From positions 589,529-653,528 of the forward strand of contig NMRA01000213.1 of assembly GCA_002633005.1 (NCBI GenBank): 64,000 nucleotides of DNA. Reading direction: 5' to 3'. Numbering within the stretch: the stretch's first letter is position 1; each line of letters starts with the position of its first letter. Both the position numbers and the translations under genes were made by a program. This document shows positions 10,288-64,000 of this stretch, piece after piece. The notes beneath the pieces are model-generated. The model saw only the letters and a program-made list of their open reading frames with translations, ran no database searches and was not told where the DNA came from. The stretch is from Phoronis australis. Lineage: Eukaryota > Animalia > Phoronida.

Positions 10288-11124
10288 NNNNNNNNNNNNN
10301 NNNNNNNNNNNNNNNNNNNNNNNNNNNNNNNNNNNNNNNNNNNNNNNNNNNNNNNNNNNNNNNNNNNNNNNNNNNNNNNNNNNNNNNNNNNNNNNNNNNN
10401 NNNNNNNNNNNNNNNNNNNNNNNNNNNNNNNNNNNNNNNNNNNNNNNNNNNNNNNNNNNNNNNNNNNNNNNNNNNNNNNNNNNNNNNNNNNNNNNNNNNN
10501 NNNNNNNNNNNNNNNNNNNNNNNNNNNNNNNNNNNNNNNNNNNNNNNNNNNNNNNNNNNNNNNNNNNNNNNNNNNNNNNNNNNNNNNNNNNNNNNNNNNN
10601 NNNNNNNNNNNNNNNNNNNNNNNNNNNNNNNNNNNNNNNNNNNNNNNNNNNNNNNNNNNNNNNNNNNNNNNNNNNNNNNNNNNNNNNNNNNNNNNNNNNN
10701 NNNNNNNNNNNNNNNNNNNNNNNNNNNNNNNNNNNNNNNNNNNNNNNNNNNNNNNNNNNNNNNNNNNNNNNNNNNNNNNNNNNNNNNNNNNNNNNNNNNN
10801 NNNNNNNNNNNNNNNNNNNNNNNNNNNNNNNNNNNNNNNNNNNNNNNNNNNNNNNNNNNNNNNNNNNNNNNNNNNNNNNNNNNNNNNNNNNNNNNNNNNN
10901 NNNNNNNNNNNNNNNNNNNNNNNNNNNNNNNNNNNNNNNNNNNNNNNNNNNNNNNNNNNNNNNNNNNNNNNNNNNNNNNNNNNNNNNNNNNNNNNNNNNN
11001 NNNNNNNNNNNNNNNNNNNNNNNNNNNNNNNNNNNNNNNNNNNNNNNNNNNNNNNNNNNNNNNNNNNNNNNNNNNNNNNNNNNNNNNNNNNNNNNNNNNN
11101 NNNNNNNNNNNNNNNNNNNNNNNN
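10288..11124. other. Assembly gap (837 N)
   Basis: Run of N. Confidence 1.
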
Positions 11125-12783: not shown

Positions 12784-13455
12784 ATAATACAGTGGCCACC
12801 TAGCTAGGCCCAGCAACAAGTAATGAAGCACAGATACAGTCAGTTACAGGGAGTGACAGTGAACTATACCAACAATGACAACCTGTGGTGTGTCAGTTGC
12901 CTATTGAGATTGGGCTTGCACCAACTGATATGTAAAGCCTCACGAATTTTAAGCTCCTTTGTTGTTACTGCCTGGTCTATTATTGCAAAGTCATTGAAAG
13001 AGCACTGCTGATAACAATGTTTGGAGCTCTGCAGGTGAATATTTACATGTGAATTACTGTCAGAATTTAGATGTTCCTTGGTCCTGGTTTTCAAATGGCG
13101 AACAGTTTCGCCTATATAACTGGAGCCACATCCAGCACAGCCATTTGAAAACCAGGACCAAGGAACATCTAAATTCTGACAGTAATTCACATGTAAATAT
13201 TCACCTGCAGAGCTCCAATCATTGTTATCAGCAGTGCTCTTTCAATGACTTTGCAATAATAGACCAGGCAGTAACAACAAAGGAGCTTAAAATTCGTGAG
13301 GCTTTACATATCAGTTGGTGCAAGCCCAATCTCAATAGGCAACTGACACACCACAGGTTGTCATTGTTGGTATAGTTCACTGTCACTCCCTGTAACTGAC
13401 TGTATCTGTGCTTCATTACTTGTTGCTGGGCCTAGCTAGGTGGCCACTGTATTAT

Positions 13456-13503: not shown

Positions 13504-14604
13504 TTAAATCCGTTGTTGTTTTCGTGAACATATGCTGTTACTTGCTATCATGGAGAACACAAATGTTGTATTGCACAGATTCAAACGTATCGTTGAATTG
13601 AAACTCGTGATATTATTATACGATTTTAGTGGAAAATAAGATAAGAAACTTTGGTAATTATTGAAAATCTCACCCAAGTGACTCCATTTGCGCAGAAAGT
13701 GCTATTTTGTTATCCCAAAGTCCATTCTTCCAAAATGTTGGCGGTACAGGCACGTGGAAATGTTGAACCACTACAATGAACGTAGTTCTTTATCCTCGTC
13801 GCCAATATTGTTATGTAGACACTAACGCAGTGATTTGATATAAAAAATGCATGTATATATTCTGAATGCTTGAGAAATATAAGATGCATGCAATTACTCA
13901 GTGGAAAGGGTTATCGTTTTGAACTGAAACTCAACTCTGCTTCATAGCGAAGTTCACGGTAAAATCGGAATTACGTAATTAACATCATTCTAGTCCCGTC
14001 CCAGGCTGTGTTTTGTAGACCATTAAACTGCGGCGAGAAATGTTTTCTTATGGAACAACAGGAATATTGAATTATTTCCCATGATGAATTTAATCTCATG
14101 ATGCAGCATTCCAAACTCACCGACCTATCACTCCAGTGACGACTCGCCTTGTAACCAATATTCACGAAGCACTTGCCTTTTTCTTTCGTTATGCCTGTTT
14201 TCACTCTAGAAACTCGATCTACATGTACGCAACTCGCACCTGGTGATTTTGGTCACAGCACATGGGTGCAGTTGTGAAGTCTCCTCAAGGGCAAAGCAAG
14301 TACAAGGTTGCAATGCTTATAAAATAACACGAAAAAGTTTGCTTTTCTTTGTTAGCTAGCTGCATTTACTAAACCGTTATCACGTTTTTGTAATTATATT
14401 CTTGCAGTTTCGAAGCAAGGTATATCTCTTTCATTTTTCCAATAGATAATAGTGGTCCGTGATAACGGCATTTTATATTCTGACCGTACATACCGGACTG
14501 TAGGCTGAATGTAAACAAGAAAAAGTCATGTCTAAACAGAAGTGAAAGAAGTAAGACTGTGATTCTATCATTTAAAGATGTGTGTATTTGTTCTTGCACG
14601 TTAG

Positions 14605-14694
14605 GGAATAATGTCGGCCACGATGGTTCATCCAATTACTTCCGCCCGGGCAAAACCAAAGGAACACTGCATTACTACAATTACACCCACGCCG
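14605..14694 (+). CDS. Candidate upstream 90-nt exon (phase 1-1) of the mosaic lectin gene
   Basis: ttcttgcacgttAG acceptor and ccg|GTAAGT donor; open frame NNVGHDGSSNYFRPGKTKGTLHYYNYTHA. Length, frame and donor are conserved in the paralogous copy at 63387-63476. Confidence 0.5.
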
Positions 14695-15351
14695 GTAAGT
14701 CATAAGGAAACTACACTATAATTGCAAAGTTAAACTGTTCTTGCGGCTGATTAAGAACCAGTCTGAACTCATTGTTATGAAAAACTCAAACGACGACACA
14801 TCTTTGGATCCTCGTTTTGTTAAAGTTCTCAAAGAAGCATATAGCGTGGGAAGTAAAGTAAATTCTAAAACGCTTATTTTACGAGGTCATCTGTGGTAAT
14901 TATAACAAATTGCCAGCTGTCACGTAGTGTAGCCTCGTTTGAGGTGGAATGTTACACATCTATCAGTTTTAAAAAAATAGTAAATTGATGAAAAACACAG
15001 CTAGCGCTTTATTTTAGACGTTGGTTTATTTCTTCAGATAAACAAAATGCCCTGTGCGATACTCGAATTGATAATATTCACAAAATGTGAGAGCACGGAC
15101 AGGAGCTGGCATCTTTAACAAACTACTGGTTTTAGCCTAAACTACGTGGTAGTGCAGTAGCCAAGTGTCATCTAGATACAAACAAAGACCGTGAGAGAGT
15201 TAATGTATTTTTGAACCCTCGTATCTGATGTAGACGTTTACTTGAATGGCATTGTTCTTGAGGGTATATGGACTCTTTTAAGCAACCTCATCGAAAGCCT
15301 TCGTACACATAATTTTAGTTTGACGAGCATTTTATTCAATCATATTTGTAG

Positions 15352-15627
15352 CTACAGAGGTCGCTTGTGAGCGTAAAGAAGCATCCCCAAAGTGCTCCAG
15401 TGGCGTAATAGAAGTAACTTTTGCACTGTACGGGAGGCAAGACACAACGACGTGCCATGACAATAATATGGCGAACACAAATTGCACAGCATCCGGTTTT
15501 CTTGCTAAAGCACAGTCTGCTTGTGATGGCCATGTCACGTGTTCAGTAAAAGGGTCACACGCTCATTATGGAATTCCAGACCCGTGCCACGGGACGCACA
15601 AATACATCACAATCGCTTACCTGTGCA
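15352..15627 (+). CDS. Exon: SUEL / rhamnose-galactose-binding lectin domain
   Basis: TEVACERKEASPKCSSGVIEVTFALYGRQDTTTC...C...CDGHVTC...DPCHGTHKYITIAYLC, with the YGR and DPC-x-GT-x-KY signatures; tgtAG and GTACGT, phase 1-1. Confidence 0.92.
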
Positions 15628-16455: not shown

Positions 16456-19400
16456 TGATGATGATGATATTAGTGGTTTGGATTGTTTTCAGAAACTGGT
16501 TGTCCAAGAGGCTGGACTATGATTGGGAACAGAAGGTGTTTTGTTGTTGCCGGCTCCAGCACATTATCTGTCACGCAAATGCAAGCCTTCGAGTACTGCG
16601 CGAGTAGAGGGGCCCTACTCGCCGTGATGGACTCTTTTGTGGAGCAGGATGGGATAACAACATTAATAAAAATGTGAGAAATGGTTGATTTGTGTATCGT
16701 TAAATTTACAGAAGTTGCATTTTCATTATAACGCCCAATGAGTCTAGCAATTTACATCCATCCAAGTTCTTCCACAGCAGTACAAAAGAGAGTGCGAAAC
16801 ACACTTCCCGGAAGAAACATTGCTGTTGTTACATTATAGATGTTGTAGTACTTCTTTTTTGGTTTGGAAATGCGATCAATCGCTGGCGTCAAAACATCCT
16901 TCGCGGGCACTTAGCCTGTTTTCGCTATCACACAATGTCGCCTGCGCAAAGATTTGTGGTAAATCCTCAAGTGCCGAGACTTCCCAGGTGTACAGTTTAC
17001 AGCCGGAACCACAATGAAAATGCATGCCACATAGTTGTTAATGTGTGTTTGTGAAAAGATAAGTGGAATTTGTGGATGTACTGTAAAATGATTTCGGTTA
17101 GACGGTGAACGTATTAATCGGTATTGAATTGGTTACTGTTCTTTACTTCATTTGAAAACCAAAAACAGGTCAAGCTTTTCTGCAATGAATAAACCTGTTA
17201 CACTGCTCTTCATTTGAAGGATACCCTAATGAATCAGGTTCCTTATTTTTCCAGGTACGCCGCGTCTCATGACATCGTTGTTGCAAATTATTGGATGGGA
17301 ATTACTAAAATTAACTCGACATTTTCCGGAAACTGGAGCACATATAACGGCAACATATTCAACAACAGTTTTACCAACTGGCGGAGTGGTGAGCCAAATG
17401 AAAGGGAAAACACTTGTGTCAAGATGAATTGCAAGGACCATGGTTGTAAATGGGAAGATGCGAGCTGCAGCGAACAAAACAACATAGTATGCGAAATGGA
17501 AGGTGTGTTTATGTAGAGGTTATTATGCCATGTCGCATCCAGCTCGGTCCTAGAAGCTCCGCGGATATCATATTTATTTCCATAATTAGAAGCAGAGCAG
17601 TGATGAGACAGGTATAACAGATTAGTGCATTATTAATATCACAATTGATTTTTTGTATTTTCAGCTATCATTTCCTTTTCTTTTTAGTCGATGTCAGACA
17701 AGGTCGAATATTAAGGTCCCACACCTAGGTCGTACAAAACGATGACCACAGACACTTGACTATGACCGCTGTCTTTATAAGAGCAAAAGTGCGACTTACA
17801 TGAAGATAAATTTGCCCCCAACAACTTCATGAGCCATTTTTATAAACGGGGTGACTCTAAATGTTTAATACGCGTTAGTGAATCTGCAAATACGATAACA
17901 TCGGATCATTGATCAAACGCTTCACCTTTGGTAAGTTATTAAAGTGTGTGGAGGTCTGTAAAGGGCTTTCGTCATTCAGAGATCCGAATGACAAATGCAC
18001 GTACACGTTTATTTTTTTGCCTAAAGTCTACTCGGGATCCTGGAGAGGAGACGTCCAACGTACATGTAGTGTTCTTTAACAGTGTGAAATGTAGAAAGAT
18101 CTTACCATTGTACTGCATGAGTTGCATACATGTTCACTGCTTTTAGCTCAGGGACCCATCAAAGGGGGCTGGGGTGAGTTCGGACCTTGGACGTCGTGTT
18201 TACTAAGTGAGAATCGCACGCGAACCAAAATGTGCAATAATCCAGCACCAAGTGGCGGCGGCTCCTATTGCCAGGAAAACAGCTCTAATACGGAGACCCA
18301 GTCTTGTCCAACTCAGGCAAAGTTGAGGATGAGCTATTACGACGAAGTCTCTGGTAAGAACATCATAAAACTCGTCGCTGGTTTATAGGGTTCTTATTGA
18401 AACAACACGTGCTCCCGCTGTGTGCATTTCTGATTTGCATCGTTTTGCATACATAGCTAATCAACTCGCCTGAAATTCCAGTCATCATGGGACTGCGATC
18501 AACGGCACCTGTCCACACGCACTTCATCAAAGTAGCTTAATAAACTGCATAATTTTGACTGAAGTATCAACAGTGTGACGCTCCTGATACCATTGTTTGG
18601 TTGTATATGGAATTTTCTCTATAATTTTAAAATCGACTATTTACTTAAGTACTGGTGTTTGGTCTGACTACAATTCTATGGGAAGCATTAGCATGTCGGA
18701 GACAACAGAGTTCCTGCACGCCCTTCTTTATCTCGTATCAATACACCAATTGAAAAATAAGAATATTATTAACAAATCATGGTTGGGCGAATTACAAATA
18801 CATGCTGCCTTCGCAAGTCATGTGAATACACTTTAACGAAGCAGAACTTCTTGTGTTCATCAGGGGACTGTTTCATGAAAGTGATCTTTGTGCTCACGAG
18901 GTTAATAACTATTCACTCACCGTGTACTATTAACCAGCGTTAAGCGTTTTATTTTGATGTTGATATCGCTTAGAAACTAAATCTTTTAAAGACTGAGTGC
19001 AATGTGAAGAAAATTTGACTGGTCTACCTGTGATAGCAATACCTTCATTTGTTAATTAGATGTTTATCGATGTTTTCGCTAAACGAATGTACCCCTAAGT
19101 TTAATCTTGTGGCGGGGAAAGTGAGATGCCTTTGGCGTGTATGAGACAACAGACGGTCCTGTACGCCCTTCTTTATCCATGCTCGTATCAATACACCAAT
19201 TGAAATATTAGAATATTTCAAACAAATCATGGTTGGGCGAATAAAAAATGCATGCTGCCATCGGAGGTCATGTGGTTGTTTATAAAGAAATAGGCAATAC
19301 TTTGTGTCACAAATCATAAAAGTGCGCGTACCTGACAGTCGAAAATACGTTATTTTCTTTAAGCAATCGAATATGGGTGCTATGTCGACAGTGATCGGCG

Positions 19401-21394
19401 AGATCTCCCAAATAGGCCTAACACTACAATACCTGAACTTACTCCATCAAAGTGCCGGGAAGCGTGTCAGGATACCGGCTACAATTACGCAGCGGTTCAA
19501 GCTGGCTACCAATGTTTCTGTGGCAACTCTTATGGTAGCAAGGGCAAAGCTTCCAACTCTGAGTGTAGTTTTGATTGTAAAGGTGACAGAACGCAGAAGT
19601 GTGGTGGGTCGTGGAGAAACTGGGTGATGCAAGCTACAACAGGGGCAGGTACGTGAATACACTTAAACGTAGCAGTGCGTTTTGTGTTCAGCAGGGGAAT
19701 GCTTCATGAAAATGCTATTTGTGGTCACCAGTTTAATAACTGTTCACTCGCCACGTACTCTTAACCAGCGTTAAACGTTTTATTTTGATGTTCATATCGC
19801 TCAGATAATAAATCCTTCAAAGACTGAGTTCAATGTGAAGGAAATTTGACTGGTTTACCTGTGACAGCAATACCTCCATTTGCCAATTAGATGTTTGTCG
19901 GTATTTTTCCTTGACGACAATGTTCCCCTAAGTTTAATCATGTGGCGGGGAAAGTGAGATACCTTTGGCGTGTCTGAGACAACAGACGGTCATGTACGCC
20001 CTTCTTATCCATGCTCGTATCAATACACCAATTGAAATATTAGAATATTTCAAACAAATCATGGTTGGGTGAATAAAAAATGCATGCTGCCATCGGAGGT
20101 CACGTGGTTGCTTACTTTGTGTCACAAATCATAAAAGTGCGCGCACCTGGCAGTCAAAAATACTTTATTTTCTTTAAGCAATCGAATATGGGTGCTATGT
20201 CGACAGTAAGTCGCGAGATATCCCACATAAGTCTGAAATACGTGAACTTACTCCATCAAAGTGCCGGAAAGCGTGTCAGGATACCGGCTACAATTACGCA
20301 GCGGTTCAAGCTGGCTTCCAATGTTTCTGTGGCAACTCTTATGGTAGCAAGGGCAAAGCTTCCGACTCTGAGTGTAGTTCTGATTGTGAAGGTGACAAAA
20401 CGCAGAAGTGTGGTGGGTCGTGGAGAAACTGGGTGATGCAAGCTACAACAGGGGCAGGTACGTGGATACACTTTAACGTAGCAGTACGTTTTGTGTTCAG
20501 CAGGGGAATGCTTCATGAAAATGCTCTTTGTGGTCACCAGGTTAATAACTGTTCACTCGCCATGTACTCTTAACCAGCGTTAAACGTTTTATTTTGATGT
20601 TCATATCGCTCAGATAATAAATCCTTCAAAGACTGAGTTCATTGTGAAGGAAATTTGACTGGTTTACCTGTGACAGCAATACCTCCATTTGCCAATTAGA
20701 TGTTTGTCGGTATTTTTGCTTGACGACAATGTTCCCCTAAGTTTAATCATGTGGCGGGGAAAGTTAGGTGAGTTTACCTACATGTAAAGCGTAAACTGAC
20801 ATTTTGAAAAATAGTAAAGCGTTGTTTACCGGAAACACCTTAGCGGCATGCAGTGGGTATCATGACGGTGGGGTATAAAAACCAGGCTGAAGACTTAAAC
20901 TCGGCTTTCTTAAACCTGAGATGTACTGTAACTTGCATTTCACCATCGTGGTTTAAAATCCTGAAAGTCAGTTTTGTCGAGACCAGGGAGCGGATTTGGT
21001 AAAACCAGTTATAAAGAATTATGGGATCTTACTGTTCGATCTGCCACGGCGTTAACTCGACAATGACGCTATTGAAGTGCTTAATGGAACCAGGTGGGTC
21101 TGTTAACAATAACATCAGTAGAGGTCTGGCAAATGTTCTTCTGAGGAACTAGGTTTCTTTACCGTAGAGAATAGGCCTATTTTTTAGAGAATCATAAAAC
21201 TTACGCCAATTCGTCTCAATGTAAATAACAAGTTTGGATAACTATTGTTTCAGTCACCTTGGTTGCATAGATCCTGGGACAGTTAAAGAAATTTTGGAGA
21301 TGCTAAAACATGAAAGCCAAACAAAATTTCATCTGAAAACAACACAGTGAAGGACGCAGTGGCCTCCAACATTTTTTTTCTGATAACTGCACCC

Positions 21395-21444
<50 letters not shown>

Positions 21445-24400
21445 AACCCATGATAAGTCGCAACGCAATCAATGCCATTTTACCTGTCATTTTTGCTACT
21501 TATTTTTTGGTGGTCTGGCCCGGTTTTCCCTAAATCCGCTACTGGGACTAAAAGAGGTGAACCTCAGTGTGAAGCATCAAGTGGTGTTAAACCTCATTGG
21601 AGATGTTGCCGTCTTTAGTCCTACATGACGACGAAAATCTGTCCAATCATTCGTATTCTTAGGAATCACGGTGCAAGTGGTACTGGTCTACTGTACGTTT
21701 GAATGAGCTTGTTGTCGTAAAAGTGAAAATATTCCACTATCGCTCTAAAATTGCGTCCGTGATGCACTCCGCGTCGTCGTTTTTCAGGCACATGGTTGAG
21801 CACAACTGTATCGTAGAGGTCTTTCAACTTTAACCTGCGTCTGACCAAGACTTAAGTTAAACTTTGCTTTTGATATTGGGCTAAGGAAATCAGCCCTGGG
21901 TTATTATTTATGCTGGAATTAAACCAGGTTCTAGATGACAACTGGACTAAAAGTCATGTCGCTTAAATGCAGGTTATCTTTAAACGTGGTCCATTCCTAA
22001 TGTAGAACAAGTTTTACTTGAAACCATTTTGATGAATGCTCCAGACGCGAAACAACAAATAGTATGTTGGCATCAAATGACTTAATCCATCATTTTGCAT
22101 TCTGTGATTTTAATACCTGCTTTGTATCATTTCAGTATGTAGTGGTACTGACAGATTCCAACTAATTATTGTTGACAAAGTGGCATTTAGCGGACATGCC
22201 ATTGAAACGGTCAGTAATGTCGACAGTGAACTAAACTGCGCCATTTTGTGCCTGAATGACGCAGAGTGCCAGTCTGCGGATTACTCCAGTGTGTCGTCCA
22301 CGTGCACTTTCTTAGATGTCACGTGGGATAACCAGATGTTGTCTTCCAATTCCTTGGCAGAGAAGTCTCAGATGGCGCATTTAGAATTTCAATGTTCCTT
22401 AGGTAAAATATCATCAAAATAATTTGACACCTTTATAGGCTTTGCAAAATCAAATAGAAAACGAAAAGCCAAGAGTACAATGAATCCATATCCGCAAGGA
22501 AAGGGCAGCCAGTGAGATTCGTTGCTGTTGATAAATGAGTCCACAATGCAATAAAGTTGCTTGCCCTCGCAGTCAGTGTTGGGAACGGGACAAGAAACGA
22601 AATGAAATAGCAGTACATTTCGAAAACAAAACCGATCTTAATCTTTCTTGTCTCTAGTTTTGCTTCAATAAGCCTGAAAATTTGTTAGGTTTTTGTGCTG
22701 CACATTTCATTTGCTAGTCTCTGGTGGGTTGCTGGTGAAATGAGGTTGGTATTCACGTGCTCATCGACTGGACATGCGCCTGTATGGTGTCTTTTTTTTG
22801 TTTTCAGTTGTTTCCGTACACAGTATATCATTTATTAAATTGTATGAAATGTACCTACTCAACAATTTATTTCATCATCTGACTTTTTTGAAAAAGTGGT
22901 CTCAGATATATGGATTTTGTTGTACCTCGAATGAGCATTTAACAGATAGCATGATAGTCGTCATATGGTAGAGTTGTAGAATCCTCTGTCGTTCGGCGCA
23001 AGCAACATCGCTAGTAGACGTATAGGCCCTACAGTATGTTTGATATTCTGAGATAACTTCATTTCAAGAGTATTTGGAGCGGACGAAACTTGTGCTCACC
23101 ACAGATGTTAGTAACCAACAGTGGAGTATTCAGGGTGTGGTAGGGGACACTCCATAACCGTCCAGGATCAAGTTGTCTACGTACATGTAAGCCATAAAAA
23201 TGGAACTGCCAGCGCCATCCTTTTCGCCAGGAATTCGACTTTTAGTAGATAGCTGCCAGCTTTTCAAGCAAAGATCACTTGCGTCCAGTTTCGTTGATTC
23301 TAGATTAGATGACTCATATCCGTCAAATCCATGCTTTGTGATGCGCAAGTGTCTGTTTTTACTGTGCAGAAAAGTCAGTGTACACATGTGTACGTTACGA
23401 CATCTTTCAGATCACCAATGTATTTTGCAGATCTGGGCTGCCCACCTGGGTTCCATCTTTACGACAACTCCAAATGCTACGCTTTAACAGGATCAGATTC
23501 TCTGAAGGTAGCCTTCACAGAAGCGATAGACTATTGCTACGCCAGGGCAAGTCAACCGGTGTTTGTAGACGACGTCGAAGAGAAGAATGACATAATTGCT
23601 TTTACAAATAAGTACGTTAAACAATACATATGCTGGACATTTTGAGCGAAACCACTTAGAAAAAAACAACAAACAGAGTTGTATGTGTTGTATACGTGTA
23701 GGCAAAGTGAGACAAATGTATCACTTGCTGAAATCGTTGTACGACTCTTAATCTATTTTGTAGTTCGAGAATGTATTGTTGTCTAAGCTTAACGTTCGAC
23801 AACCTTTAGGGCGTGGTATAGACGAAATTTTCTTTTTAGGACCGACCATTACTTTAAGTTTTTAAGAGCCTGAGACACCCAACAGAATGTTGTAACCTCA
23901 ATCGCTGACACTCTCAGCCGCGTACTTGTGTCCTTGAGCCAGATATTTTACTTTTGTAGCTGCAGTCGATGTGCATGTATTAGTCGCGGCTGGAAAGTAA
24001 CCCGTGGACCAGTGCACTGCTGGCAGTGTTCCGTCCGGGCTCATGCTATCGAAACAGAAGTCAATTACATGTACCTGTCCAATGAGTATGGCGATTCATG
24101 AAAGATTAGCTTTGTTATTATCGAGAGTACGCTAGTGCTTAGATAACCGTGTCCTTAAGTAATCCTGTACCCATGCCTGCTGTTCAGACATGAACTGAAA
24201 GTTTGTTTGGTACTAGTTACTTCATATCCATTTATAACGCGGCTTCGTCAAAGATTACTTCTTAAATGTTTGCTAATGAAACATCCCGTGTTTCAATTCA
24301 TTAAGATTCCCCTGAAAATCACTTACCGGAGTTTCGCTTCTTGTGTATTCCTCATTGTTAGTTGTTTATCATCATCGGGGAAACATTACCCCCTGCAACC

Positions 24401-27400: not shown

Positions 27401-30400
27401 CCCCCCGCATCCTTTGGCTGAGATTGCTATGTTATACATTCAAATATTTTCGAGTTATACGACAAATATTCACACGTTTTAGTTTGACTGAACGCACTCG
27501 CACCTTATCAGGTGTTTGCCTCATTTGGTTCCCGATGAGCTATGCCTGTATGGAATTCATGTATAGTTAACTCATCTCCAAATTAAACTTAGATTGTGCA
27601 CAGTGACGGGTCTAGGATACCATAAAGGGAGGAGGCAAGATGTTTCATCGGAGAATTGGGCAAAGCGCGATTGTATGCACAAGCGGCCCGAAAGCTGAGG
27701 GGGCTGGCGATGTAGACCTGGTGTTGCCAAATTCTATCGGAGGACTGAAAAAAATAATAAAAACGGGAACGCGATTCCGCTACGCTCTGCCACCCCCCGC
27801 TCCCATTCCGAATTGGTGCACTCCTTTCTTCACGCTGTTGCTGCTGTTTATTATTCCTTGCAACCACCCAGGGGGGCGCGCCCCCTGCCCCCCTAAATCC
27901 GCCTATGGTGCAACTTCCCTTCCGTTGTACTTGTAGCTCTCTGTGATCTATCGGCTGGTCAGCAGCTTCAAGTGGTGTCCTCAAGCAACCGAATGATTCT
28001 TGGCAATGAGTTGAAATACCTCAACGGCGTGAACAGCGAGATGGACTGTGCCATTCTGTGCCTGGATGAGTCGGGTTGCAAGTCTGCTGACTTCTCTAAC
28101 AGCACAAACGTCTGCATCTTAAAAAACGTCACGTGGTCCGACCCAGACTTGGATCCGAGCATTGTCCAGCCAAATAACACCCTGTCTCACTTGGAGTTTG
28201 CATGTGTCGTAGGTAAGTCATTTGCATTACTTATAAGCACCTGTTCCGTAGCAGCGAGAATCTCGCGAAAACGTACATGCATAAGCACGCAAGACTTTGC
28301 CCGATACCGGAATCTATTAAAAGCAAAGCAAGAGATTCTTGGGTCTACGGAACTCTTTCCAGGTAGAACATTGCCCAATGGCCTTTATTTTGCTACCTTT
28401 CAGCCTGGTTATACGAACGTAGTGTCCTTGTATTTTAAGGAAGTGCCGTAAAGTTTAGGATAGTTCCGTTGTACGTGCTCGTTCATTGTGCGCGGTCTAC
28501 GCTGACAGACTGTTCTTTGTAACAAGGTTTTACCAGAGTCCATGCGTATACGGTGAAGACGCCAAACACAAAAGTCTTTTTTCTGAATGATTATCATGAA
28601 CTAATCAATAAACATACAGACTCAGAAAACACCAAGAGTCATCGTATCTGGGCTAAACAATTCAAAACAGTACAAAAAATCTGGTATATATAAATATGCG
28701 CCAGTAACCTGATAAACTAATGTTAAGATTGCAATGATAAATACTAAAAATAAATATGCTTACGAATATAAATAAATCATGTTTATACACAATAAGCAAG
28801 ACAAAGTTTGATCTAATACCATAAATTCCTACACTGGGGTAATCTTCGGGTGTACTGGATGAGGGTCACCGCAATTTCCAAAGGACAAGCGTTTTATAGA
28901 GGTCTAGAAATGTCGGCCCCTTTTTGGTAGGAGGTTGACGTTGCACCGGGGGTCCTAAATCAGTCCGTATCAATGTTTTTGGAAACAACGCAAGTTCAAT
29001 GCAAAAATATCTTTTAAAAAATTCAAAGAAGATGCCTTTAATTGCTTTTGTATCTTCAATTTCATCAACAGTTTAATGAAACTGCACTGCACACCTATCC
29101 TCAGACACACTCAAATCTTGAATGAATGAGGAAATATCTTCGATGTTTATAGTTGTTTTTATTCATTCAAGCAGAACCACGAATAGTTAATGAAATTGAA
29201 AGAGAAATGATGTCCTGGTCGAGACAATTTTAAAACTTCTTTTGGCAGAATTACAACAGCAGTAAAGTAGACCTAGTTCTTGTTATCTAAACTGGTTTGT
29301 CTGTACCTTGTTATCTAAACTGGTTTGTCTGTACCTTGTTATCTAAACTGGTTTGTCTGTACCTTGTTATCTAAACTGGTTTGTCTGTACCTTGTTATCT
29401 AAACTGGTTTGTCTGTACCTTGTTATCTAAACTGGTTTGTCTGTACCTTGTTATCTAAACTGGTTTGTCTGTACCTTGTTATCTAAACTGGTTTGTCTGT
29501 ACCTTGTTATCTAAACTGGTTTGTCTGTACCTTGTTATCTAAACTGGTTTGTCTGTACCTTGTTATCTAAACTGGTTTGTCTGTACCTTGTTATCTAAAC
29601 TGGTTTGTCTGTACCTTGTTATCTAAACTGGTTTGTCTGTACCTTGTTATCTAAACTGGTTTGTCTGTACCTTGTTATCTAAACTGGTTTGTCTGTACCT
29701 TGTTATCTAAACTGGTTTGTCTGTACCTTGTTATCTAAACTGGTTTGTCTGTACCTTGTTATCTAAACTGGTTTGTCTGTACCTTGTTATCTAAACTGGT
29801 TTGTCTGTACCTTGTTATCTAAACTGGTTTGTCTGTACCTTGTTATCTAAACTGGTTTGTCTGTACCTTGTTATCTAAACTGGTTTGTCTGTACCTTGTT
29901 ATCTAAACTGGTTTGTCTGTACCTTGTTATCTAAACTGGTTTGTCTGTACCTTGTTATCTAAACTGGTTTGTCTGTACCTTGTTATCTAAACTGGTTTGT
30001 CTGTACCTTGTTATCTAAACTGGTTTGTCTGTACCTTGTTATCTAAACTGGTTTGTCTGTACCTTGTTATCTAAACTGGTTTGTCTGTACCTTGTTATCT
30101 AAACTGGTTTGTCTGTACCTTGTTATCTAAACTGGTTTGTCTGTACCTTGTTATCTAAACTGGTTTGTCTGTACCTTGTTATCTAAACTGGTTTGTCTGT
30201 ACCTTGTTTTTTGTCATTGTCATTCAGACAATTAACTAAACAGCTTGAACTAATGTTTGTCGGGTTTGTTTGTCGTCGCAAAATGACAAAATGAAGAGAG
30301 CTGAAATGGAACAATAAAGCTGTAATATGATTCACTTCCAGTATTGATCAAATCTCTTAATTCTGCTATCCTGGATCCACAGACTTAAAGTAACCAATGA

Positions 30401-39400: not shown

Positions 39401-42400
39401 TTCGAAACAGAACTCGAAACTGCACCAACCCAGCGCCAGCATTTGGAGGTGTCGGATGTGAGGAAAACGACACGGACATATCAGTTTGTGTTGTGGAAAA
39501 GTGCTCATGTAAGTTACCAGTCTTCTTGTGGAGATATTATAAATGCCTGTACTGTAACAATCATGTCATTTGATTGAAACTCCGAGTAACTGAATCACGT
39601 CGCGTTTTCTTTATACTCCATGTAGGACACATTTACACGAGTTGAAGGAGAATGCCACCCGATATAATTAGTCTTTTTTGCCGTCTTAATTGGTCTATAT
39701 CCACATCGCCTCGCAAACGGTCGACCTTACCTTGCCAAGAGGTGTCGCGTTAACCTGTGAGGAAGGTGAGAAACGACGCTAGGGACGTCAGTGGTTCATA
39801 TGCAGAGTGAATGCCGCTATGTTGCGGTGCATCGTTCCCGCTTCTCCGAACTAAGCAGCTGCGAGGAAAGCGGGTATATCGTTTTTTTTTACTTTCTCGA
39901 GAGTCCGAAATACTTAGGAAGTGGCTCATGGTAGTGAAGAATGAAATGTACATGTACCCTGTAAATAGCAAGTATGAGACCGTGAAACATTTCCGTGTCT
40001 GCAGCCTGCACTGAGACGTCCGACGAATGGGCTTACCAAATAACTCCATACGTTCCGTTGTCTGAGCTTGTTCACGGAGCCTCTCTAGTATTTCTTCATC
40101 ACTGTATTCCTGTTCGAATTGATAGCCTGTAATACTTAACGATCCACTTGCTAAGTCGTGACCTTTGAGCTCTAGCTCGTCCTAAGTCGGGATTGCGAGT
40201 TGCCATGTTGGCGTTTATTACTGAGCGTTCTGTTTCAAAATGAATTATTCTCACCCTAACCAATACTTACATAAAACTGAAACCAAGTCTGTCTCATTAG
40301 ATGCAATTTGTAATGCCTTTGGATTGTTCGTGAGTGCAAATGATTTGAGAAGCCCGCAATGAATAAATCACTGCGTTACCGGCTTTAGGGGAAATAAAAC
40401 TACTTGACGGGTCACCGAGGCCGTGTGAGCTCATGCTAATTTAGTGTTTGCTGACAGAAAGTATTGTGAAACAACTCGATTTCCATCCCACGGCCAGGTG
40501 TTAGGGGAATCTTTATTTACATTTACATTACTCAAATAATGATTGTCAATGTACAACTTCTGCCCTGACGGTGCGAGTATAGATTGGCAGTTTCGAGGTA
40601 ATTCACCTCCGTCTGCCGTCAGGTGTCAGGTACCGCAACCGTACGTATTGTTATGCAGTAGAACTACTCGATCTAAATTGATACAAATTTGGTTGTTTTT
40701 TGGGTGGCATGCTCCTTTAAAGTGTTTGCGATAGTCCGAAAATACATAGGATTTTTCTACATGCAATAATGCATAATGCTTCGGTCGTTAGACATGTGCC
40801 GAATACAACCGACTGCCAGGTATTGATACATGTACACCGTGCTGGGATTTCCTATACGTGCGAAATAGGGAGCCTTGAGTGGTTACAACCCAACACTCTG
40901 AAAACTCAATATTCTGACAGCACACTGTTCCCACAATTTACCTGATATACCGACAATGATCTCTTCTCTAAATTTTGTTGTATGTTACACGTTGTTGGTG
41001 ATTTTTATGCCATTTATTTATTGATTTCAAAAACCTCCTCATGGGGGAACATGCAACAATAATAAACAATATACAACAATTTTGAAAAATAATGCTTTGG
41101 TTATACGCGATGAAGATTGGGCTCGCGATGTGTCTAGAGCCGAGGAGAGTACGAATCAAGGAAATCACTCTGAGGTCTGTCACTATTTCTCACTCTGTGC
41201 ATCTTACCCGGAGTAAGCTGCCTGGTATAATTCATAAACGTTTGTATGCATGTACATGTGCTATACGTTTGTATGCATGTACATGTGCTATACGTTTTTG
41301 GGAATGATAACCTCTGACATGGCATATACTGCAAAATTTGAGGTGATTGATACTTCCTCGCTTTTTGCAGAAATCTGTACAAAGGACACAAATTATCTGG
41401 CGAACGTGAATTTTGCTTCTTTACCTTCGGTGAGCGCCACCATTCGGAGAGCTTAAGGAGTTTTAGCAGTTGTCCAGTATTATCATCGTTATGACTAAAA
41501 AGAACTACGTGACCATTTCACGATGGAGAAGTCTATCATTAGTTGCCACTTTCAAAGCTGACACTGTGATAACCAATCAAAATCGGAATTATGAAAGCAA
41601 ACATTTTTGAAGGCACACAAATCATTGAATACATGCTGATAGTTTGCTTGGGTAACAACTTTCATTCACTCATTCTATTGAAATTCGATTTCTTATAGTC
41701 GCCCGACGGCAGCCAGTCGACTGATGTCGCACATCCGATTTGCATCGTTTTTCATCTTTGTAAATAATCTACTGCTTACTTTCCCACAGCGCGATTCAAG
41801 TGCACTTGCTACAAATTATCAGATGATAGAATAGGACTACTGCGATTTTAACGGACTTATTTCACAATATGGTATTTCAGGGAAATACATAATGCCTCGC
41901 GCGGTTTATTAGCATACTTTCGGACCAGTCCACCTTTGTACTAGTGCACCTTCGGACTTGTCTACCGTTGGACTAGTGCACCTTCATACTAGTGCACCTT
42001 CGGACTTTCAGATAATTAACAAGAATCTTCATGTCTAACTTAAAATTAATTTGGGGCGCCAGTTGTTAGATTAACTTTAATGCAAGGTGTATTTGTATTT
42101 ACTTAATTATAATTTATTGTAATGTCGCAATATACATGTAATATCATGTGTCTTGTCTGGCTTACGTTGTCGTTTTCATAACCAACTCGAGGCTATATCA
42201 GCGTTGTGTTAATTAAAAGAAATTTATGTAATTATACGATGTCTGTTTGGAATTTGTATGCGTTACATTTAACGTATACGGTGTGGACTTGGCGAAAGAA
42301 CTTCAGGAAAAAAATAAACAAATCCTTTTCCATTACGCAGATTGCAAAGACAACAACAACAATTGTAACTATTGGGCTACAAAAGGCTATTGTAACAACA

Positions 42401-42516
42401 ACAATTATAAGGCGTATATGCAGAAGAATTGTCGAGCATCCTGCAAGGTCTGTGGTGGAGGAAACGGCGGAGGCGGCGGCGGTGGTGGTGGTGGTGGCGG
42501 TGGTAACAGTACGTAA
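15352..42516 (+). CDS. Multi-exon gene for a mosaic extracellular lectin (SUEL-PAN-CTL-TSP1-WSC-WSC-PAN-CTL-TSP1-PAN-CTL-F5/8C-TSP1x4-ShKT); 5' end missing, 3' end uncertain
   Basis: 20 exons with AG acceptors and GT (one GC) donors join in compatible phases with no stop codon, about 4.58 kb of coding sequence. Domains were recognised from conserved Cys/Trp motifs (see exon entries). Many N-x-S/T sequons. Confidence 0.85.
15979..16239 (+). CDS. Exon: PAN/Apple domain 1 (ends at a GC donor)
   Basis: ...SEHACASYCANDTQCKSADY...CVF...HLEFQFTD, with C-x3-C-x5-C-x-S spacing; donor g|GCAAGT at the same position as the GT donors of the other two PAN exons. Confidence 0.85.
16412..16468. repeat. Compound (GAC)n(GAT)n microsatellite just upstream of the CTL1 exon
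   Basis: Direct reading. Confidence 0.95.
16493..16673 (+). CDS. Exon: C-type lectin domain 1, N-terminal half
   Basis: GCPRGWTMIGNRRCF...AFEYCASRGALLAV; tttcAG and GTGAGA, phase 1-2. Confidence 0.9.
17255..17502 (+). CDS. Exon: C-type lectin domain 1, C-terminal half (EPN motif)
   Basis: YWMGI...FTNWRSGEPNERENTCV...WEDASC...IVCE; ttccAG and GTGTGT, phase 2-1. Confidence 0.92.
18147..18353 (+). CDS. Exon: thrombospondin type-1 repeat
   Basis: GGWGEFGPWTSC...RTRTKMCNNPAPSGGGSYC...ETQSC; tttAG and GTAAGA, phase 1-1. Confidence 0.9.
19364..19648 (+). CDS. Exon: WSC (putative carbohydrate-binding) domain, copy 1
   Basis: Frame not shown in the ORF track: IEYGCYVDSDRRDLP...LTPSKCREACQDTGYNYAAVQAGYQCFCGN...ECSFDCKGDRTQKCGGSWRN; ttctttaAG and GTACGT, phase 1-1. 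Confidence 0.9.
20179..20457 (+). CDS. Exon: WSC domain, copy 2 (recent tandem duplicate)
   Basis: IEYGCYVDSKSRDIP...LTPSKCRKACQDTGYNYAAVQAGFQCFCGN...ECSSDCEGDKTQKCGGSWRN; same splice sites as copy 1, 6 nt shorter, still in frame. Confidence 0.88.
21396..21442. repeat. (CA)n microsatellite
   Basis: Direct reading. Confidence 0.95.
22136..22402 (+). CDS. Exon: PAN/Apple domain 2
   Basis: SELNCAILCLNDAECQSADY...CTF...HLEFQCSL; tttcAG and GTAAAA, phase 1-1. Confidence 0.88.
23431..23611 (+). CDS. Exon: C-type lectin domain 2, N-terminal half
   Basis: GCPPGFHLYDNSKCY...FTEAIDYCYAR; ttgcAG and GTACGT, phase 1-2; 181 nt, the same length as the CTL1 N exon. Confidence 0.9.
23865..24090 (+). mobile_element. 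Possible degenerate CORE-type SINE
   Basis: tgtgtccttgagccagatattttac (about 23926-23950) resembles the CORE motif; no intact A/B box seen. Confidence 0.3.
24581..24822 (+). CDS. Exon: C-type lectin domain 2, C-terminal half (EPS motif)
   Basis: YWLGM...YTYWRNGEPSHDCALMNC...WEGVDC...IICE; ttctAG and GTACGT, phase 2-1. Confidence 0.9.
25244..25447 (+). CDS. Exon: divergent TSP1 repeat
   Basis: GGWTQVRWNGPCVPCGKRTLFAQCDNPPPVNGGYC...EEDYC; tacAG and GTAAGT, phase 1-1. Confidence 0.82.
27601..27907. mobile_element. MITE with related termini and 5-bp TSD GTGCA, 30 nt upstream of the PAN3 exon
   Basis: cagtgacgggtctagg...cctaaatccgcctatg flanked by gtgca at 27596-27600 and 27908-27912. Confidence 0.72.
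27937..28212 (+). CDS. Exon: PAN/Apple domain 3
   Basis: SEMDCAILCLDESGCKSADF...CIL...HLEFACVV; tgtAG and GTAAGT, phase 1-1. Confidence 0.88.
29279..30208. repeat. Perfect 28-bp minisatellite, about 33 copies
   Basis: (cttgttatctaaactggtttgtctgtac)n with no variant unit seen and no spacers. Confidence 0.97.
30645..32031. mobile_element. Probable degenerate TTAA-type (Kolobok-like) DNA element
   Basis: Right end cgactacactacccc-TTAA; subterminal inverted match agttatttttgctcga (about 30658) and tcgagcaaaataaaataact (about 31992); left terminus eroded. Confidence 0.35.
32570..32741 (+). CDS. Exon: C-type lectin-like domain 3, N-terminal half
   Basis: Frame not in the ORF track: DKSPYWWDNSSRWNAFSYSLQHLDYEEAKRHCDMRNSHVLFLNSLQEVSQIIQW; ttgcAG and GTAAGT, phase 1-2. 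Confidence 0.8.
33241..33440 (+). CDS. Exon: C-type lectin-like domain 3, C-terminal half (no EPN/QPD motif)
   Basis: VFWLS...NQCLSLVCNFTHCYEMARMCNDSLPVICEK; cgcAG and GTAGGC, phase 2-1. Confidence 0.82.
34170..34360 (+). CDS. Exon: F5/8 type C (discoidin) domain, part 1
   Basis: LNNLPATSFKVSS...AWCA...IEVDLGVDWVVTAIGTK; aacAG and GTAATT, phase 1-0. Confidence 0.82.
34682..34792 (+). CDS. Exon: F5/8 type C domain, part 2
   Basis: GSTSHDQWVTVYEFYLGMDS...; tacAG acceptor; donor GTAAGG at 34793 (alternative in-phase GTATGT at 34781), phase 0-0. Confidence 0.8.
35872..36010 (+). CDS. Exon: F5/8 type C domain, part 3
   Basis: Frame not in the ORF track: FNGNVNKNSEVVNRLEFPRVARFVRIQPLSYHGWKSLRLEIYG, with the ARFVRI.P and LR.E.YG signatures; tttcAG and GTAATT, phase 0-1. 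Confidence 0.9.
37120..37693. mobile_element. Element with about 90-bp inverted ends carrying hammerhead-like motifs (probable PLE remnant)
   Basis: 37120-37208 is the reverse complement of 37608-37693; TTGAGAA..ggt(t)..(a)acc GAAAC(G/T)TC motif in both arms. Confidence 0.5.
38199..38366 (+). CDS. Exon: TSP1 repeat
   Basis: GGWSSWGAWSQC...RNRSRVCNNPVP...C.G...C; tctAG and GTATGC, phase 1-1. Confidence 0.9.
38996..39508 (+). CDS. Exon: three tandem TSP1 repeats
   Basis: DGNWTTWSNWTACSLTCGGG.R.R.R.C.NP.P..GG..C repeated three times; aacAG and GTAAGT, phase 1-1. Confidence 0.95.
39646..40716. mobile_element. Kolobok-like non-autonomous DNA transposon, copy 1
   Basis: TIRs aggagaatgccaccc and gggtggcatgctcct, flanked by ttga and ttaa (TTAA-type TSD, AG termini). 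Confidence 0.7.
42341..42516 (+). CDS. Exon: ShKT domain plus poly-Gly linker (ends at donor 42509 or at TAA 42514-42516)
   Basis: CKDNNNNCNYWATKGYCNNNNYKAYMQKNCRASCKVC (six-Cys ShKT pattern ending C-x3-C-x2-C) followed by a G-rich tail; cattacgcAG acceptor; a phase-1 GTACGT donor precedes the stop. Linkage to the upstream exons is inferred from phase only. Confidence 0.8.
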
Positions 42517-60351: not shown

Positions 60352-63300
60352 CTCTTCCACTTAATACGCTGGAAATACAGTCTGCCGTTTATCGAGCGTG
60401 GTTTAACTCCACTAACACTTTAATCTTTTAATCATGACGGGACGAGGGGTGTAGGTTGGAATGCAATCTGAGACTGAACGCAGAAAATCTCATGTTAATG
60501 GAATTCGATGGACTATCAATGTGTTTTGGGGAAACAAGACAAACGTAAAAAAATAGATAAGTCATTTGATCAAAATTATTGAACGTGCCACTCAAGATAA
60601 TGATTACAAAACTTGTTTCCACCCGAAGAATTTCGACAATTATAACTCTTCAGAACATGTCCTTGATGAACTGAAATGCAATAACGTTGTATTCATATGC
60701 AAATGGTGTCGTCTACTTGGTCTCGTATTCCAGAATGCTGCTATATCCTTGCCCATTATCAGCCAACAAAACCAGACATTGAGTGCGTTGATATTTGTTT
60801 TTGTAACACTCCGGCACTTCGATCAAACAGAAATGTAGGCCTACTGACAATGATTTTATGTTCCGTTTTCGATTTACAATAACAGGGAAATTGCATGCAT
60901 GGCTAGATGCGCACTACCCATACTAGGGGAATCCCCTTTTTTCATTTCCGTCACGGTAATTGATTTTGAATATCCTAAAATTACAGCGTCCATAAACCCA
61001 CCGTCCGTCACATAAGGTAAATTGAATGCAGTATATCGAACATGGCACATGCAGATTGAGGATATTGGAATCTATGCTTAAATTTATTATTTACATTCAC
61101 CAAATTATCCCTTATGCGTTGAATCTTTCGAGGGAAATACGGCCATGCAATAAAGTTTTCCGTATTCACCTCCCGCACTACTTCAACAGTGACCTCTGAC
61201 ATGGAAGGTTCCAAAGGTAGGTCAATGTCGACTCGACGTCTTCAGCCGGTTCGATCAACAAACTTTCCGAATATACATGTAGTTTAAAGTAATACAGTTG
61301 CAACAATTTAATTAACACCCGACATGCAACCAAGCCCTAAACGTAAAATCTGGAACAAAACTTTTGATTATATGACACTTCCGTCTCAGTTTTCAATTGC
61401 TGAATACTGAAACTCAGGTGCCGATTCCTAGGACACTACCATACCAAATGTTGTTATGTAACTATTTCCGGGAGATGTTACAAGTTCACTCAGTGCACAG
61501 TTGCCGTTGTTTTCATCTTTGTTACCTCTTTTCAATAAATAAATCGTTACTTTTAAAACTGTTTCTTTTAAAAGAGTTTGCAAACTAACGCGCAAGGAGG
61601 CCTACATACCTATAGGATAAGATCCGCCATGTGAACTGTCTGAGTGAAGAATTTAAAAATCTGCCGATAAATGAAAGAAACTCAGGAATTCGAAGGGCAT
61701 GGGATAAATACAAAACGTACCTCGATTAAGTGGCGTACATGAAGTGGTATCCCACTCGACATTATTCCGCAGAATAATGTCTCGTGGGATATTATTTCAT
61801 GTACGCCACTATCGGTACATTTTATGTATATAGAATACGTGACAAGTTTCATTCATCGAAATGTAAAATATTCATTACGTCACTCTTTTCTTTTTGTTTG
61901 CATTCTTTCACTATCATTTGTTTGAAGAGGGCGAGGTATCCGCGGAAATCTCACTTATTTCATATGGTGGCAATTGAATGAGTATCCGGGATGCATGAGT
62001 CACCTATCTTTCACTACGGCGGCCATTTTAATGTTGCACCACTAAAAATGCGAATTTTAGTCAGATTTAAAAACTAAAAAAATCATATTAAATACAGTTA
62101 ATTTTTAAAATTTTCGGAGTGGTGTTGAACTAGCATGTGCTAAAATCCAGTTTATTAAGCCTTTGACTAAACTGAAGCAGGGAATAGTATTTTAATGCCC
62201 GTGAAAAACCTGCGTTGAAGGAGCAGGTCACGGTGGTGTGCTGCAGGCTGGCACTGTTTTCCTAAAACCTGTGTTGATCAAGCTCTGCTGTTAGCTCACG
62301 GTCGATCGGGTCATGACACTTTAACACATTTTGTTATAATCCCCTGTGTCATTTTCATTTTCATCTGAACACGAGAGATGCCTGTCTCGAAATATAAACG
62401 TTATTTTAATTATCCATGTTTGGGTATTGTCGTTGTTCTTCTGCTCTCCCGTGGATGGTCGACAAATATACATAGAGTTTGAGTACTGTGTATGTGTGAA
62501 AATCGCCAATTGTAACAACGTCGTGCGTTTAAAGTTTGGTCACTCATGGGGAAGGGTGCATTGTCTCTAATGGCCATAATACAGAATATTGAGCTCCAGC
62601 TAGGAACTTTTTTGTTTTTTTCTGATGTGTTACAAAAAACAACATCAAAACTATACAGACGTATGATTGAGAAATATAAGATGCATGCAGTTACTGAAAA
62701 GGGTTATAGTTTTGAAGTGAAACATCAACTCTGCTTCATAACGAAGTTCACAGAAAAGTCGAAGTTCATATTTAACATTATTCTTGTCCCGTCCCAGGCT
62801 GTGTTTTGTAGACCATTTAGCTGTGGCGGGGAATGTTTTCATATGGAACAGGAACATTATTTTTTCCCATGAGGAATTTAATCTCATGTTTCAGCAATCC
62901 AAACTTACCGATCTATCACTCTACTGACGGCCATTTTTCCAGGTAACCAATAATCCCGAAGCACTCGCGTTTGTCTTTAGTAATGCCTCTTTTCACTCAA
63001 GAAACTATATCTACTCAACTCACACCTAGTGATTTTGGTCACAGCACATGGATGCAGTTGTGAAGTCCCCTCAAGCGCAAAACAAGTGCTGGGTTGCAAT
63101 GTTTATAAAGATAGCACCAAAAATGTTTGCTCCCTTTTGTAAGCTAAGTGCTATTTCTCAATCGTTATCATTAACTTATATTTGCATTCTTGCAGTTTTG
63201 AAGAAAGGTAGTTTTCTCTTCATTCATCCCATAGGGGTCCGTAGTAACTGCATTTTCGATGTTGATAGTACAGATCGGACTGTAGGCGGAATGTAAACTA

Positions 63301-63386
63301 GGAGAAATCCTGCCTAAATAGAAGTGAAAGAAGTAAGAATTTTATTCTATTACTTCAAGATGTGTGAATTTATTCTTCCACATAAG

Positions 63387-63476
63387 GGAATAGTGTCGGC
63401 GACGAAGGTTCATCCACCTACCACCCGTCGGGCAAAACCGAAGGAGCGCTGCATTACTACAATTACACCCACGCCG
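63387..63476 (+). CDS. Candidate 90-nt exon of the next tandem copy
   Basis: Paralog of 14605-14694: NSVGDEGSSTYHPSGKTEGALHYYNYTHA, open frame, no indel, AG and GTAAGT. Confidence 0.45.
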
Positions 63477-64000
63477 GTAAGTCATAACGAAACACAATAA
63501 TTGCAAAGTTAAATTGTTTTTGTAGCTTATTAAGAACCAGTCTGAACTCACTGTTGAGCAAAACTCAAACGACGACACATCTTTGGATCTATGTTTTGCC
63601 AAAAGTTCTCAAAGAAGCATATAGCTTGGGAAGTAAAGTAAATTCTAAAACAATTATTTTACGAAGTCGTCTGTGGTTAGTACAACAAATTGCCAGCTGT
63701 CATGTAGTGTAGCCTCGTTTGAGGTGGAATGTTACACATCCATCAGTTTTAAAAAACAGTAAATTGACGAAAAACAAAGCCAGCGCTTTATTTTAGAAGT
63801 TGGGTTACTTCTTCGGATAAATGAAAAGCCCCATGCGATACTCGCCTTAATAATAGTCACAAAACGTGAGAGCACGGGACAGGAGCTGGCATCTTTAACA
63901 AACTACTGGGTTTAGTGTTAACTACGCCATAGTGCTGTAGCCAAGTGTCATCTACACATAAACAAAGACCGTGAGAGAGTTAATGTATTTTGCACCCTCG

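What the first reader, a model, noticed from the sequence alone, without database searches (positions are those of the whole stretch)
19364..20457. Duplicated WSC exons differ only at amino-acid-changing sites
Seen, by manual codon alignment of copy 1 vs copy 2: 13 changed codons, all non-synonymous (D>K, R>S, L>I, N>H, R>K, P>S, P>R, E>K, Y>F, N>D, F>S, K>E, R>K), plus an in-frame NTT>E indel. No silent change was found and all 8 Cys are kept. The duplicated downstream intron differs at only about 8 of ~305 nt, a lower rate than the exon. Changes cluster in the loop after GCYVD. Inference: diversifying selection on a ligand-binding surface, as in immune or gamete-recognition proteins. Patchy gene conversion is an alternative.
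Basis: partly seen in the sequence, partly recalled or inferred. Interest (0 to 1): 0.78.

Follow-up and report, generated by a model that had tools for sequence, protein, structure and literature searches.

The report
Duplicated WSC exon with variable loop
An animal gene for a multi-domain lectin-like protein carries two 95%-identical copies of a WSC-domain exon that differ only at amino-acid-changing sites, mostly in one surface loop; this likely reflects selection for new binding surfaces, but the statistics are modest and no transcript containing either copy was seen.

Summary
Two phase 1-1 WSC exons (19364-19648, 20179-20457) differ at 13 of 91 aligned codons (15 nt), all non-synonymous, plus an in-frame indel; all 8 Cys are kept (one-sided p 0.008-0.04). 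The excess sits in the loop after GCYVD (31% of N sites against 3.4% elsewhere) and partly rests on one 4-of-5-nt burst. New evidence for selection: changes avoid family-conserved codons, variable codons exceed the intron rate (p 0.001, or 0.012 with the burst as one event), and a third WSC version (about 86% identical) in a DNA sample holding this locus is changed again in the same loop. Contig depths suggest the tandem pair lies on one haplotype only. An exon-less relic unit lies upstream. Against: no RNA read fits either copy in 3 shallow runs; 4 sense reads skip both exons; most WSC-covering reads are antisense and of the third version. Verdict: a turnover-prone WSC cassette, likely under diversifying selection on one loop (about 50%); a known kind of phenomenon.

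The parts
19364..19648 (+). WSC exon copy 1 (E1), phase 1-1, 94 full codons, one N-glycosylation sequon (NTT) in the loop
   Evidence: (PF01822, E 2e-20)
20179..20457 (+). WSC exon copy 2 (E2), phase 1-1, 92 full codons, no sequon
   Evidence: (PF01822, E 2e-18)
19390..19437 (+). Variable loop (codons 9-24, between strand 1 and the helix): 9 of the 15 substitutions and the 6-nt indel
19393..19397 (+). Burst of 4 differences in 5 nt (D>K, R>S); possibly one multinucleotide event
   Evidence: single-event reading is inference
19127..19363 (+). Upstream intron piece B1, duplicated as 19957-20178 (10 of 219 nt differ, 2 indels)
19649..19956 (+). Downstream intron piece A1, duplicated as 20458-20765 (9 of 308 nt differ)
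18688..19126 (+). Relic third unit: both intron pieces at about 85% identity, joined at a 3-nt GTG overlap (18822-18824); 381 nt holding acceptor, exon and donor are missing
   Evidence: joint 19271->19653, contig depth 76.3
18147..18353 (+). Upstream TSP1-like exon, ends in phase 1
   Evidence: tblastn to TSP1 repeats; no Pfam hit
22136..22402 (+). Downstream PAN/apple exon, begins in phase 1; joined directly to the TSP1-like exon in 4 sense reads of run X7
15352..15627 (+). SUEL (galactose/rhamnose-binding) lectin exon of the host gene, spliced to PAN exon at about 15980
16486..17501 (+). C-type lectin domain of the first PAN-CTL-TSP1 module (two exons)
18334..20251 (-). Minus-strand intron of an antisense transcript seen in runs X5 (3 reads) and X6 (4 reads); the reads carry letters of the third WSC version
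62663..64000 (+). Start of a second gene copy (83% identical to 13866-15221) running off the window; candidate home of the third WSC version
   Evidence: link to the third version is inference

Best explanation
Two near-identical WSC exons sit in tandem as phase 1-1 cassettes inside a modular lectin-like gene, likely on one haplotype only, and their surface loop is likely under diversifying selection while the disulfide core is likely held by purifying selection. Mechanism: unequal crossing-over between the repeated intron units adds or removes whole WSC cassettes without breaking the frame (inferred; shown are three repeat units, one with its exon deleted, and matching phases). Each retained copy would add a PAN-like binding module between the first and second PAN-CTL-TSP1 repeats (inferred; not seen in RNA). 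Replacements accumulate in the loop after strand 1 and at a few exposed sites, including equivalents of Kremen1 ligand-contact positions, which would change ligand specificity (inferred; ligand unknown).
For: 15 N and 0 S changes. Loop 9 of 28.9 N sites versus 6 of 174.7 elsewhere. Variable codons, defined from 824 WSC domains of 153 other proteins, exceed the intron rate at three entropy thresholds (p 0.0007-0.003; 0.012-0.030 with the burst as one event), conserved codons do not (1 of 85 at H<3), and the 6 changes outside the loop all fall on variable codons (p=0.024). Only 2 of 72 within-protein WSC pairs with 8-22 differences put as large a share in the loop. A third version reads PNYIGISALTP where E1 has PNRPNTTIPELTP and E2 PHKSEIRELTP (hand translation of the X2 loose end): 11 of 28 nt differ from E2, 9 non-synonymous, against about 14% background (p about 0.001); by parsimony both copies carry derived changes. 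A divergent version of the neighbouring TSP1-like exon differs mostly synonymously (7 of 10 listed rows). Model pLDDT 94.9, Kremen1 WSC fold TM 0.84-0.88; P23R, Y48F and K72E match KRM1 N140, Y165 and F191 on the DKK1-binding face. Tandem on one haplotype: shared E1/E2 contigs at depth 70-77, the upstream junction at 47.7, the reference downstream at 43.9 beside a divergent version at 44.
Against: Whole exon is not faster than both introns (p=0.14); outside the loop the rate is the intron rate; clustering p rises to 0.09-0.29 with the burst as one event. Interface overlap is 3 of 8 positions, p=0.084. The loop is the variable part of WSC domains anyway (1.44-fold in 159 pairs). No RNA read lay on E1 in 3 runs, reads on E2 carried other letters, and 4 of 4 sense junction reads leaving the TSP1-like exon in X7 skip both copies; depth was only 1-3 and the animals differ from the DNA sample. 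No listed contig bridges the junction between the copies, and depths in X2 do not scale cleanly with X1. The third version also has synonymous changes (4 known) and most of its differences were cut from the tables (66 rows not shown).
Confidence: 0.5

Rival explanations
1. Relaxed constraint plus chance: a young, perhaps rarely spliced duplicate drifts; one multinucleotide mutation and one indel fell in a tolerant loop, and zero synonymous changes is a small-number accident in a pair chosen after inspection.
For: Only 2.5 synonymous changes are expected at the intron rate, P(0)=0.078; outside-loop rate 3.4% equals intron 3.6%; scan p 0.09-0.29 with the burst collapsed. Multinucleotide mutations are mostly non-synonymous and mimic selection (10.1101/165969, abstract). 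No sense read on either copy; a sister exon was deleted.
Against: Variable codons still exceed the intron rate after collapsing the burst (p 0.012-0.030); conserved codons are spared; a third version is independently changed in the same loop at about three times its background.
Confidence: 0.29
2. E1 and E2 are alleles of one exon that the assembler joined in tandem through the shared intron tail; the pattern is then allelic hypervariability.
For: E1 plus E2 amount to about two haploid copies in run X1 (depth 70-77); intron divergence of 3.6% is near the allelic differences seen in flanking contigs; another contig path merges into the same 47-nt tail (19909-19955); no listed piece bridges the junction.
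Against: Both alleles would exit into the reference downstream sequence, which has single-copy depth (43.9) beside a 10%-divergent version (44); that contig starts exactly 30 nt before the point where the tail branches (20735), as expected if the tail also leads into the second copy.
Confidence: 0.13
3. Patchy gene conversion: the copies are older than they look and were homogenised except in the loop, which keeps old divergence without selection for change.
For: Older units in the array differ by 12-16%; 10 synonymous sites in the loop are too few to date it; mosaic intron tails are seen among contigs.
Against: Loop divergence (9 of 39 aligned nt plus indel; 11 of 28 against the third version) exceeds the roughly 14% of the oldest units; the 6 scattered changes outside are also all non-synonymous.
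Confidence: 0.08

Closest known systems
WSC domain (Pfam PF01822), as in human Kremen1 and yeast Wsc1
   Same: Eight cysteines, CGG motif, PAN-like fold; changed sites partly match the Kremen1 face that binds DKK1 (PMC5014086, passages) and is reused by a virus (PMC6946704, passages).
   Different: Here it is a single-exon cassette in a SUEL-PAN-CTL-TSP1 mosaic gene, in two young copies; best relatives found are at most 52% identical; ligand unknown.
Bivalve C-type lectin-like proteins with WSC and other accessory domains (PMC10140915, one passage)
   Same: C-type lectin combined with WSC in an invertebrate multi-domain protein.
   Different: The passage gives no exon-level duplication or dN/dS; the organism here was not identified.
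Sponge aggregation factors (PMC5400394, passages)
   Same: Large extracellular mosaic genes, phase 1 introns, internal repeats of about 96% identity, polymorphism between individuals.
   Different: Different domains (Calx-beta, VWA, Wreath); no allorecognition evidence here.
Sea urchin Sp185/333 (PMC3342357, abstract)
   Same: Diversity by duplication, conversion and presence or absence of blocks.
   Different: Two-exon genes with mosaic elements; unrelated protein; shown to bind bacteria, which is untested here.

Membership tests
WSC domain (PF01822) | Pfam profile above gathering score | tested here: met
   73.1 and 66.8 bits, cut-off 27.8
WSC domain (PF01822) | Eight conserved cysteines and CGG motif | tested here: met
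   definition from PMC9024836 section 17
WSC domain (PF01822) | Five-strand sheet plus one helix (PAN-like fold) | tested here: met
   predicted model of E1 only: (TM 0.84-0.88 to Kremen1)
WSC domain (PF01822) | Binding of glucan or a protein ligand | not testable with these tools
   no binding data
Symmetrical (phase 1-1) shuffled module exon | One domain per exon, same phase at both ends, flanking exons in phase | tested here: met
   the skip junction 18353->22136 keeps frame
Gene segment under diversifying selection | dN significantly above dS or neutral rate, robust to multinucleotide events and site choice | tested here: inconclusive
   p 0.008-0.04 for N versus S; 0.012-0.030 at variable codons with burst collapsed; whole exon versus introns p=0.14
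Gene segment under diversifying selection | Recurrent change at the same sites across several sequences | tested here: inconclusive
   third version differs again at codons 17, 18, 23 and the indel site, but only a 30-nt consensus and 6 table rows were visible
Gene segment under diversifying selection | Segment is expressed as protein-coding mRNA | tested here: inconclusive
   no sense read fits E1 or E2 in 3 shallow runs from other samples
Mutually exclusive tandem exons | Transcripts with either copy but not both | tested here: inconclusive
   only a skip-both junction (4 reads, X7) was listed; the intron between copies is 530 nt with normal GT-AG ends
Invertebrate immune or allorecognition receptor | Expression in immune tissue, microbial or non-self binding, population polymorphism | not testable with these tools
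   tissues not given; domain content is only suggestive

The most novel reading that the evidence does not exclude
The WSC cassette is a copy-number polymorphism (none, one or two exons per haplotype or gene copy) of a modular invertebrate recognition protein, and its first loop is a hypervariable binding surface diversified by selection, making WSC a variable recognition module in animals, with an antisense transcript overlapping the cassette.
Probability: 0.3. Interest if true: 0.62.

Novelty: new member of a known kind. Interest (0 to 1): 0.42.

Why it matters
If true, it gives a small, foldable domain with three natural loop variants on a known ligand-binding fold, so the unknown ligand of animal WSC modules and the effect of loop changes become directly testable. 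It would also add WSC to the domains that invertebrates vary by exon turnover. The general phenomenon (duplicated modules with non-synonymous excess in lectin-like genes) is well known, which limits surprise.

Tried and rejected
No whole genome is held, so paralogs could not be listed. Near-length homolog search found nothing; longer and profile searches gave only distant WSC proteins, so no ortholog-based dN/dS. No RNA holder was listed by the index; raw RNA runs came by species label. I first read the 18333->20253 joint as an in-frame fused exon lacking the loop and rejected this: its reads lie in the opposite mate direction to all four sense GT-AG joints, and the skipped part reads GT..AG on the minus strand. 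Pfam scan of 80 further ORFs found no family above cut-off, so no signal peptide, membrane span or C-terminus was placed. No further WSC copy in the window. One search used a wrong frame and was replaced. Earlier findings: none. Paper searches listed no description of this gene or of selection on animal WSC loops; the library lacks most subscription journals and supplements were not read. Solvent exposure was not computed because model coordinates are not returned.

Full report
OBSERVATION. Both exons are present with AG and GT ends and phase 1-1. Of 91 aligned codons 13 differ, at 15 nucleotides, all non-synonymous; a 6-nt indel turns NTT into E and removes the only N-glycosylation sequon. 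All 8 cysteines are kept. With 63-73 synonymous sites, Fisher one-sided p is 0.008-0.017 per nucleotide and 0.016-0.030 per codon. The downstream intron differs at 9 of 308 nt, but the upstream intron is duplicated too and differs at 10 of 219 nt plus two indels. Against both introns (19 of 527, 3.6%) the exon (15 of 273) is not faster, p=0.14.

ANATOMY. The exons lie in a plus-strand mosaic gene. Pfam finds SUEL, PAN, C-type lectin, WSC, WSC, PAN, C-type lectin, PAN, TSP1 repeats and ShK in that order (10 of 20 ORFs scanned had a hit); tblastn shows repeated PAN-CTL-TSP1 modules and no other WSC in the window. RNA joints confirm four splices of this gene; that all exons form one transcript is inferred. 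The repeat array has three units. The first (18688-19126, about 85% identical) has lost 381 nt holding the exon, at a 3-nt overlap; a DNA contig shows this joint. A second gene copy starts at 62663.

WHERE THE EXCESS LIES. Codons 9-24 hold 9 changes in 28.9 N sites (31%); the rest hold 6 in 174.7 (3.4%), equal to the intron rate. A scan over the 830-nt unit gives p 0.001-0.004 per nucleotide, 0.26-0.29 if 19393-19397 is one event, and 0.09-0.10 if indels are counted as well. Multinucleotide events are a known source of false selection signals (10.1101/165969; abstract seen). An independent partition came from 824 WSC domains in 153 proteins. At entropy 3 or more, 14 changes fall in 118.6 N sites (p=0.0009 versus introns; 0.012 with the burst as one event); conserved codons have 1 in 85; two other thresholds agree. 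The 6 changes outside the loop all avoid conserved codons (p=0.024), which argues against a long-dead exon. Among 72 within-protein WSC pairs with 8-22 differences (37 proteins, not independent), 2 reach the loop share seen here; the median share is 0.27.

STRUCTURE. The E1 model (43-row alignment, pLDDT 94.9) matches Kremen1 WSC, TM 0.84-0.88. By the alignment, P23R, Y48F and K72E correspond to KRM1 N140, Y165 and F191, named in or at the DKK1 interface (PMC5014086; passages seen); D125, E162, S163, V189 and D201 equivalents are unchanged, so 3 of 8, p=0.084. The same KRM1 face binds a virus (PMC6946704; passages). In yeast Wsc1, loops L1, L2, L4 and L5 pack at one end and no ligand pocket is evident (PMC9024836; passages and section 17); 12 of the 13 changed codons lie outside the model's helix and long strands, as do most residues.

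DNA READS. Eight runs were listed; 5 were laid. In X1, contigs shared by E1 and E2 have depth 70-77, the relic-to-copy-1 junction 47.7, and downstream of copy 2 two versions stand side by side at 43.9 (reference) and 44 (40 other letters, 7 gaps in 415 nt). I infer two haploid copies in all, in tandem on one haplotype. No listed piece bridges the junction, 40 pieces were not shown, and X2 depths are noisy, so allelic mis-assembly keeps about 13%. X1 and X2 are one sample and may be the source of the window, so they are not independent support. They also hold a third WSC version, about 86% identical (X1 records 4 and 7, X2 record 14). Its loop, from a 30-nt consensus of 2 contigs, translates by hand to PNYIGISALTP: 11 of 28 nt differ from E2, 2 synonymous and 9 not (p about 0.001 against 14%, 0.015 against 20%). 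Of 6 listed rows outside the loop, 2 are synonymous; 66 rows were not shown. Whether it is the other allele or a paralog is unresolved; its RNA link to a divergent TSP1-like exon favours a paralog (inference).

RNA READS. Three runs from other samples, 18-19% of each read, gave 75, 69 and 49 reads on 10.6 kb. None lay on E1. In X7, whose reads match the reference TSP1-like exon, 4 of 4 sense junction reads go straight to the PAN exon. In X5 and X6, 3 and 4 reads join 18333 to 20253 in the opposite mate direction; the skipped part is GT..AG on the minus strand and the reads carry third-version letters, so this is a spliced antisense transcript. Two X5 reads join the WSC end to 21555, a possible terminal exon (table 5c only). 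Expression of E1 or E2 is therefore not shown; these animals may not carry them. As a control, a divergent version of the TSP1-like exon differs at 7 synonymous and 3 non-synonymous of the 10 listed in-exon rows (337 rows not shown).

MECHANISM AND VERDICT. Shown: phase-symmetric cassette, three repeat units, one exon lost, all-replacement divergence, loop concentration, a third variant. Inferred: unequal crossing-over, single-haplotype tandem, selection, binding role. I put diversifying selection on the loop at 0.50, relaxed constraint with a multinucleotide event at 0.29, alleles at 0.13, patchy conversion at 0.08. Comparable systems are known: CTL-WSC architectures in bivalves (PMC10140915; one passage), sponge aggregation factors (PMC5400394; passages), Sp185/333 (PMC3342357; abstract). 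Searches (listings only) showed no report on this gene or on selection in animal WSC loops. New member of a known kind; interest 0.42.

Noticed in passing
window 18334-20251, minus strand: Spliced antisense transcript across the TSP1-like and WSC exons in 2 of 3 RNA runs; the reference copies keep the same minus-strand donor.
   Followed up: partly
window 14605-14694 versus 63387-63476: A 29-codon exon upstream of SUEL differs between the two gene copies at 9 codons (10 non-synonymous, 3 synonymous steps; 62.75 N and 24.25 S sites), about the rate of the flanking introns (11-17%).
   Followed up: partly
window 21555-21628: Possible alternative terminal exon after WSC (2 reads in X5), ending in a stop after 24 codons; would give a short form.
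   Followed up: no
window 29279-30208: Perfect 56-nt tandem array, about 16 copies, 100% identical, in an intron after the third PAN exon.
   Followed up: no
window 12867-13372: Inverted pair of near-identical ORF remnants (125 aa on each strand), transposon-like; not tested.
   Followed up: no
window 39885-40572 and 44342-45025: 90%-identical repeat pair; one ORF there has a weak THAP hit below cut-off (E 0.014).
   Followed up: no
window 42340-42508: ShK-domain exon followed by a poly-glycine stretch, probably part of the same gene.
   Followed up: no
window about 10290-11120: Assembly gap of about 830 N upstream of the gene; the 5' end and signal peptide were not found.
   Followed up: no
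window 20391-20443: A contig of depth about 42 matches only the WSC 3' end with unrelated flanks: a fourth, more distant WSC exon elsewhere in the genome.
   Followed up: no
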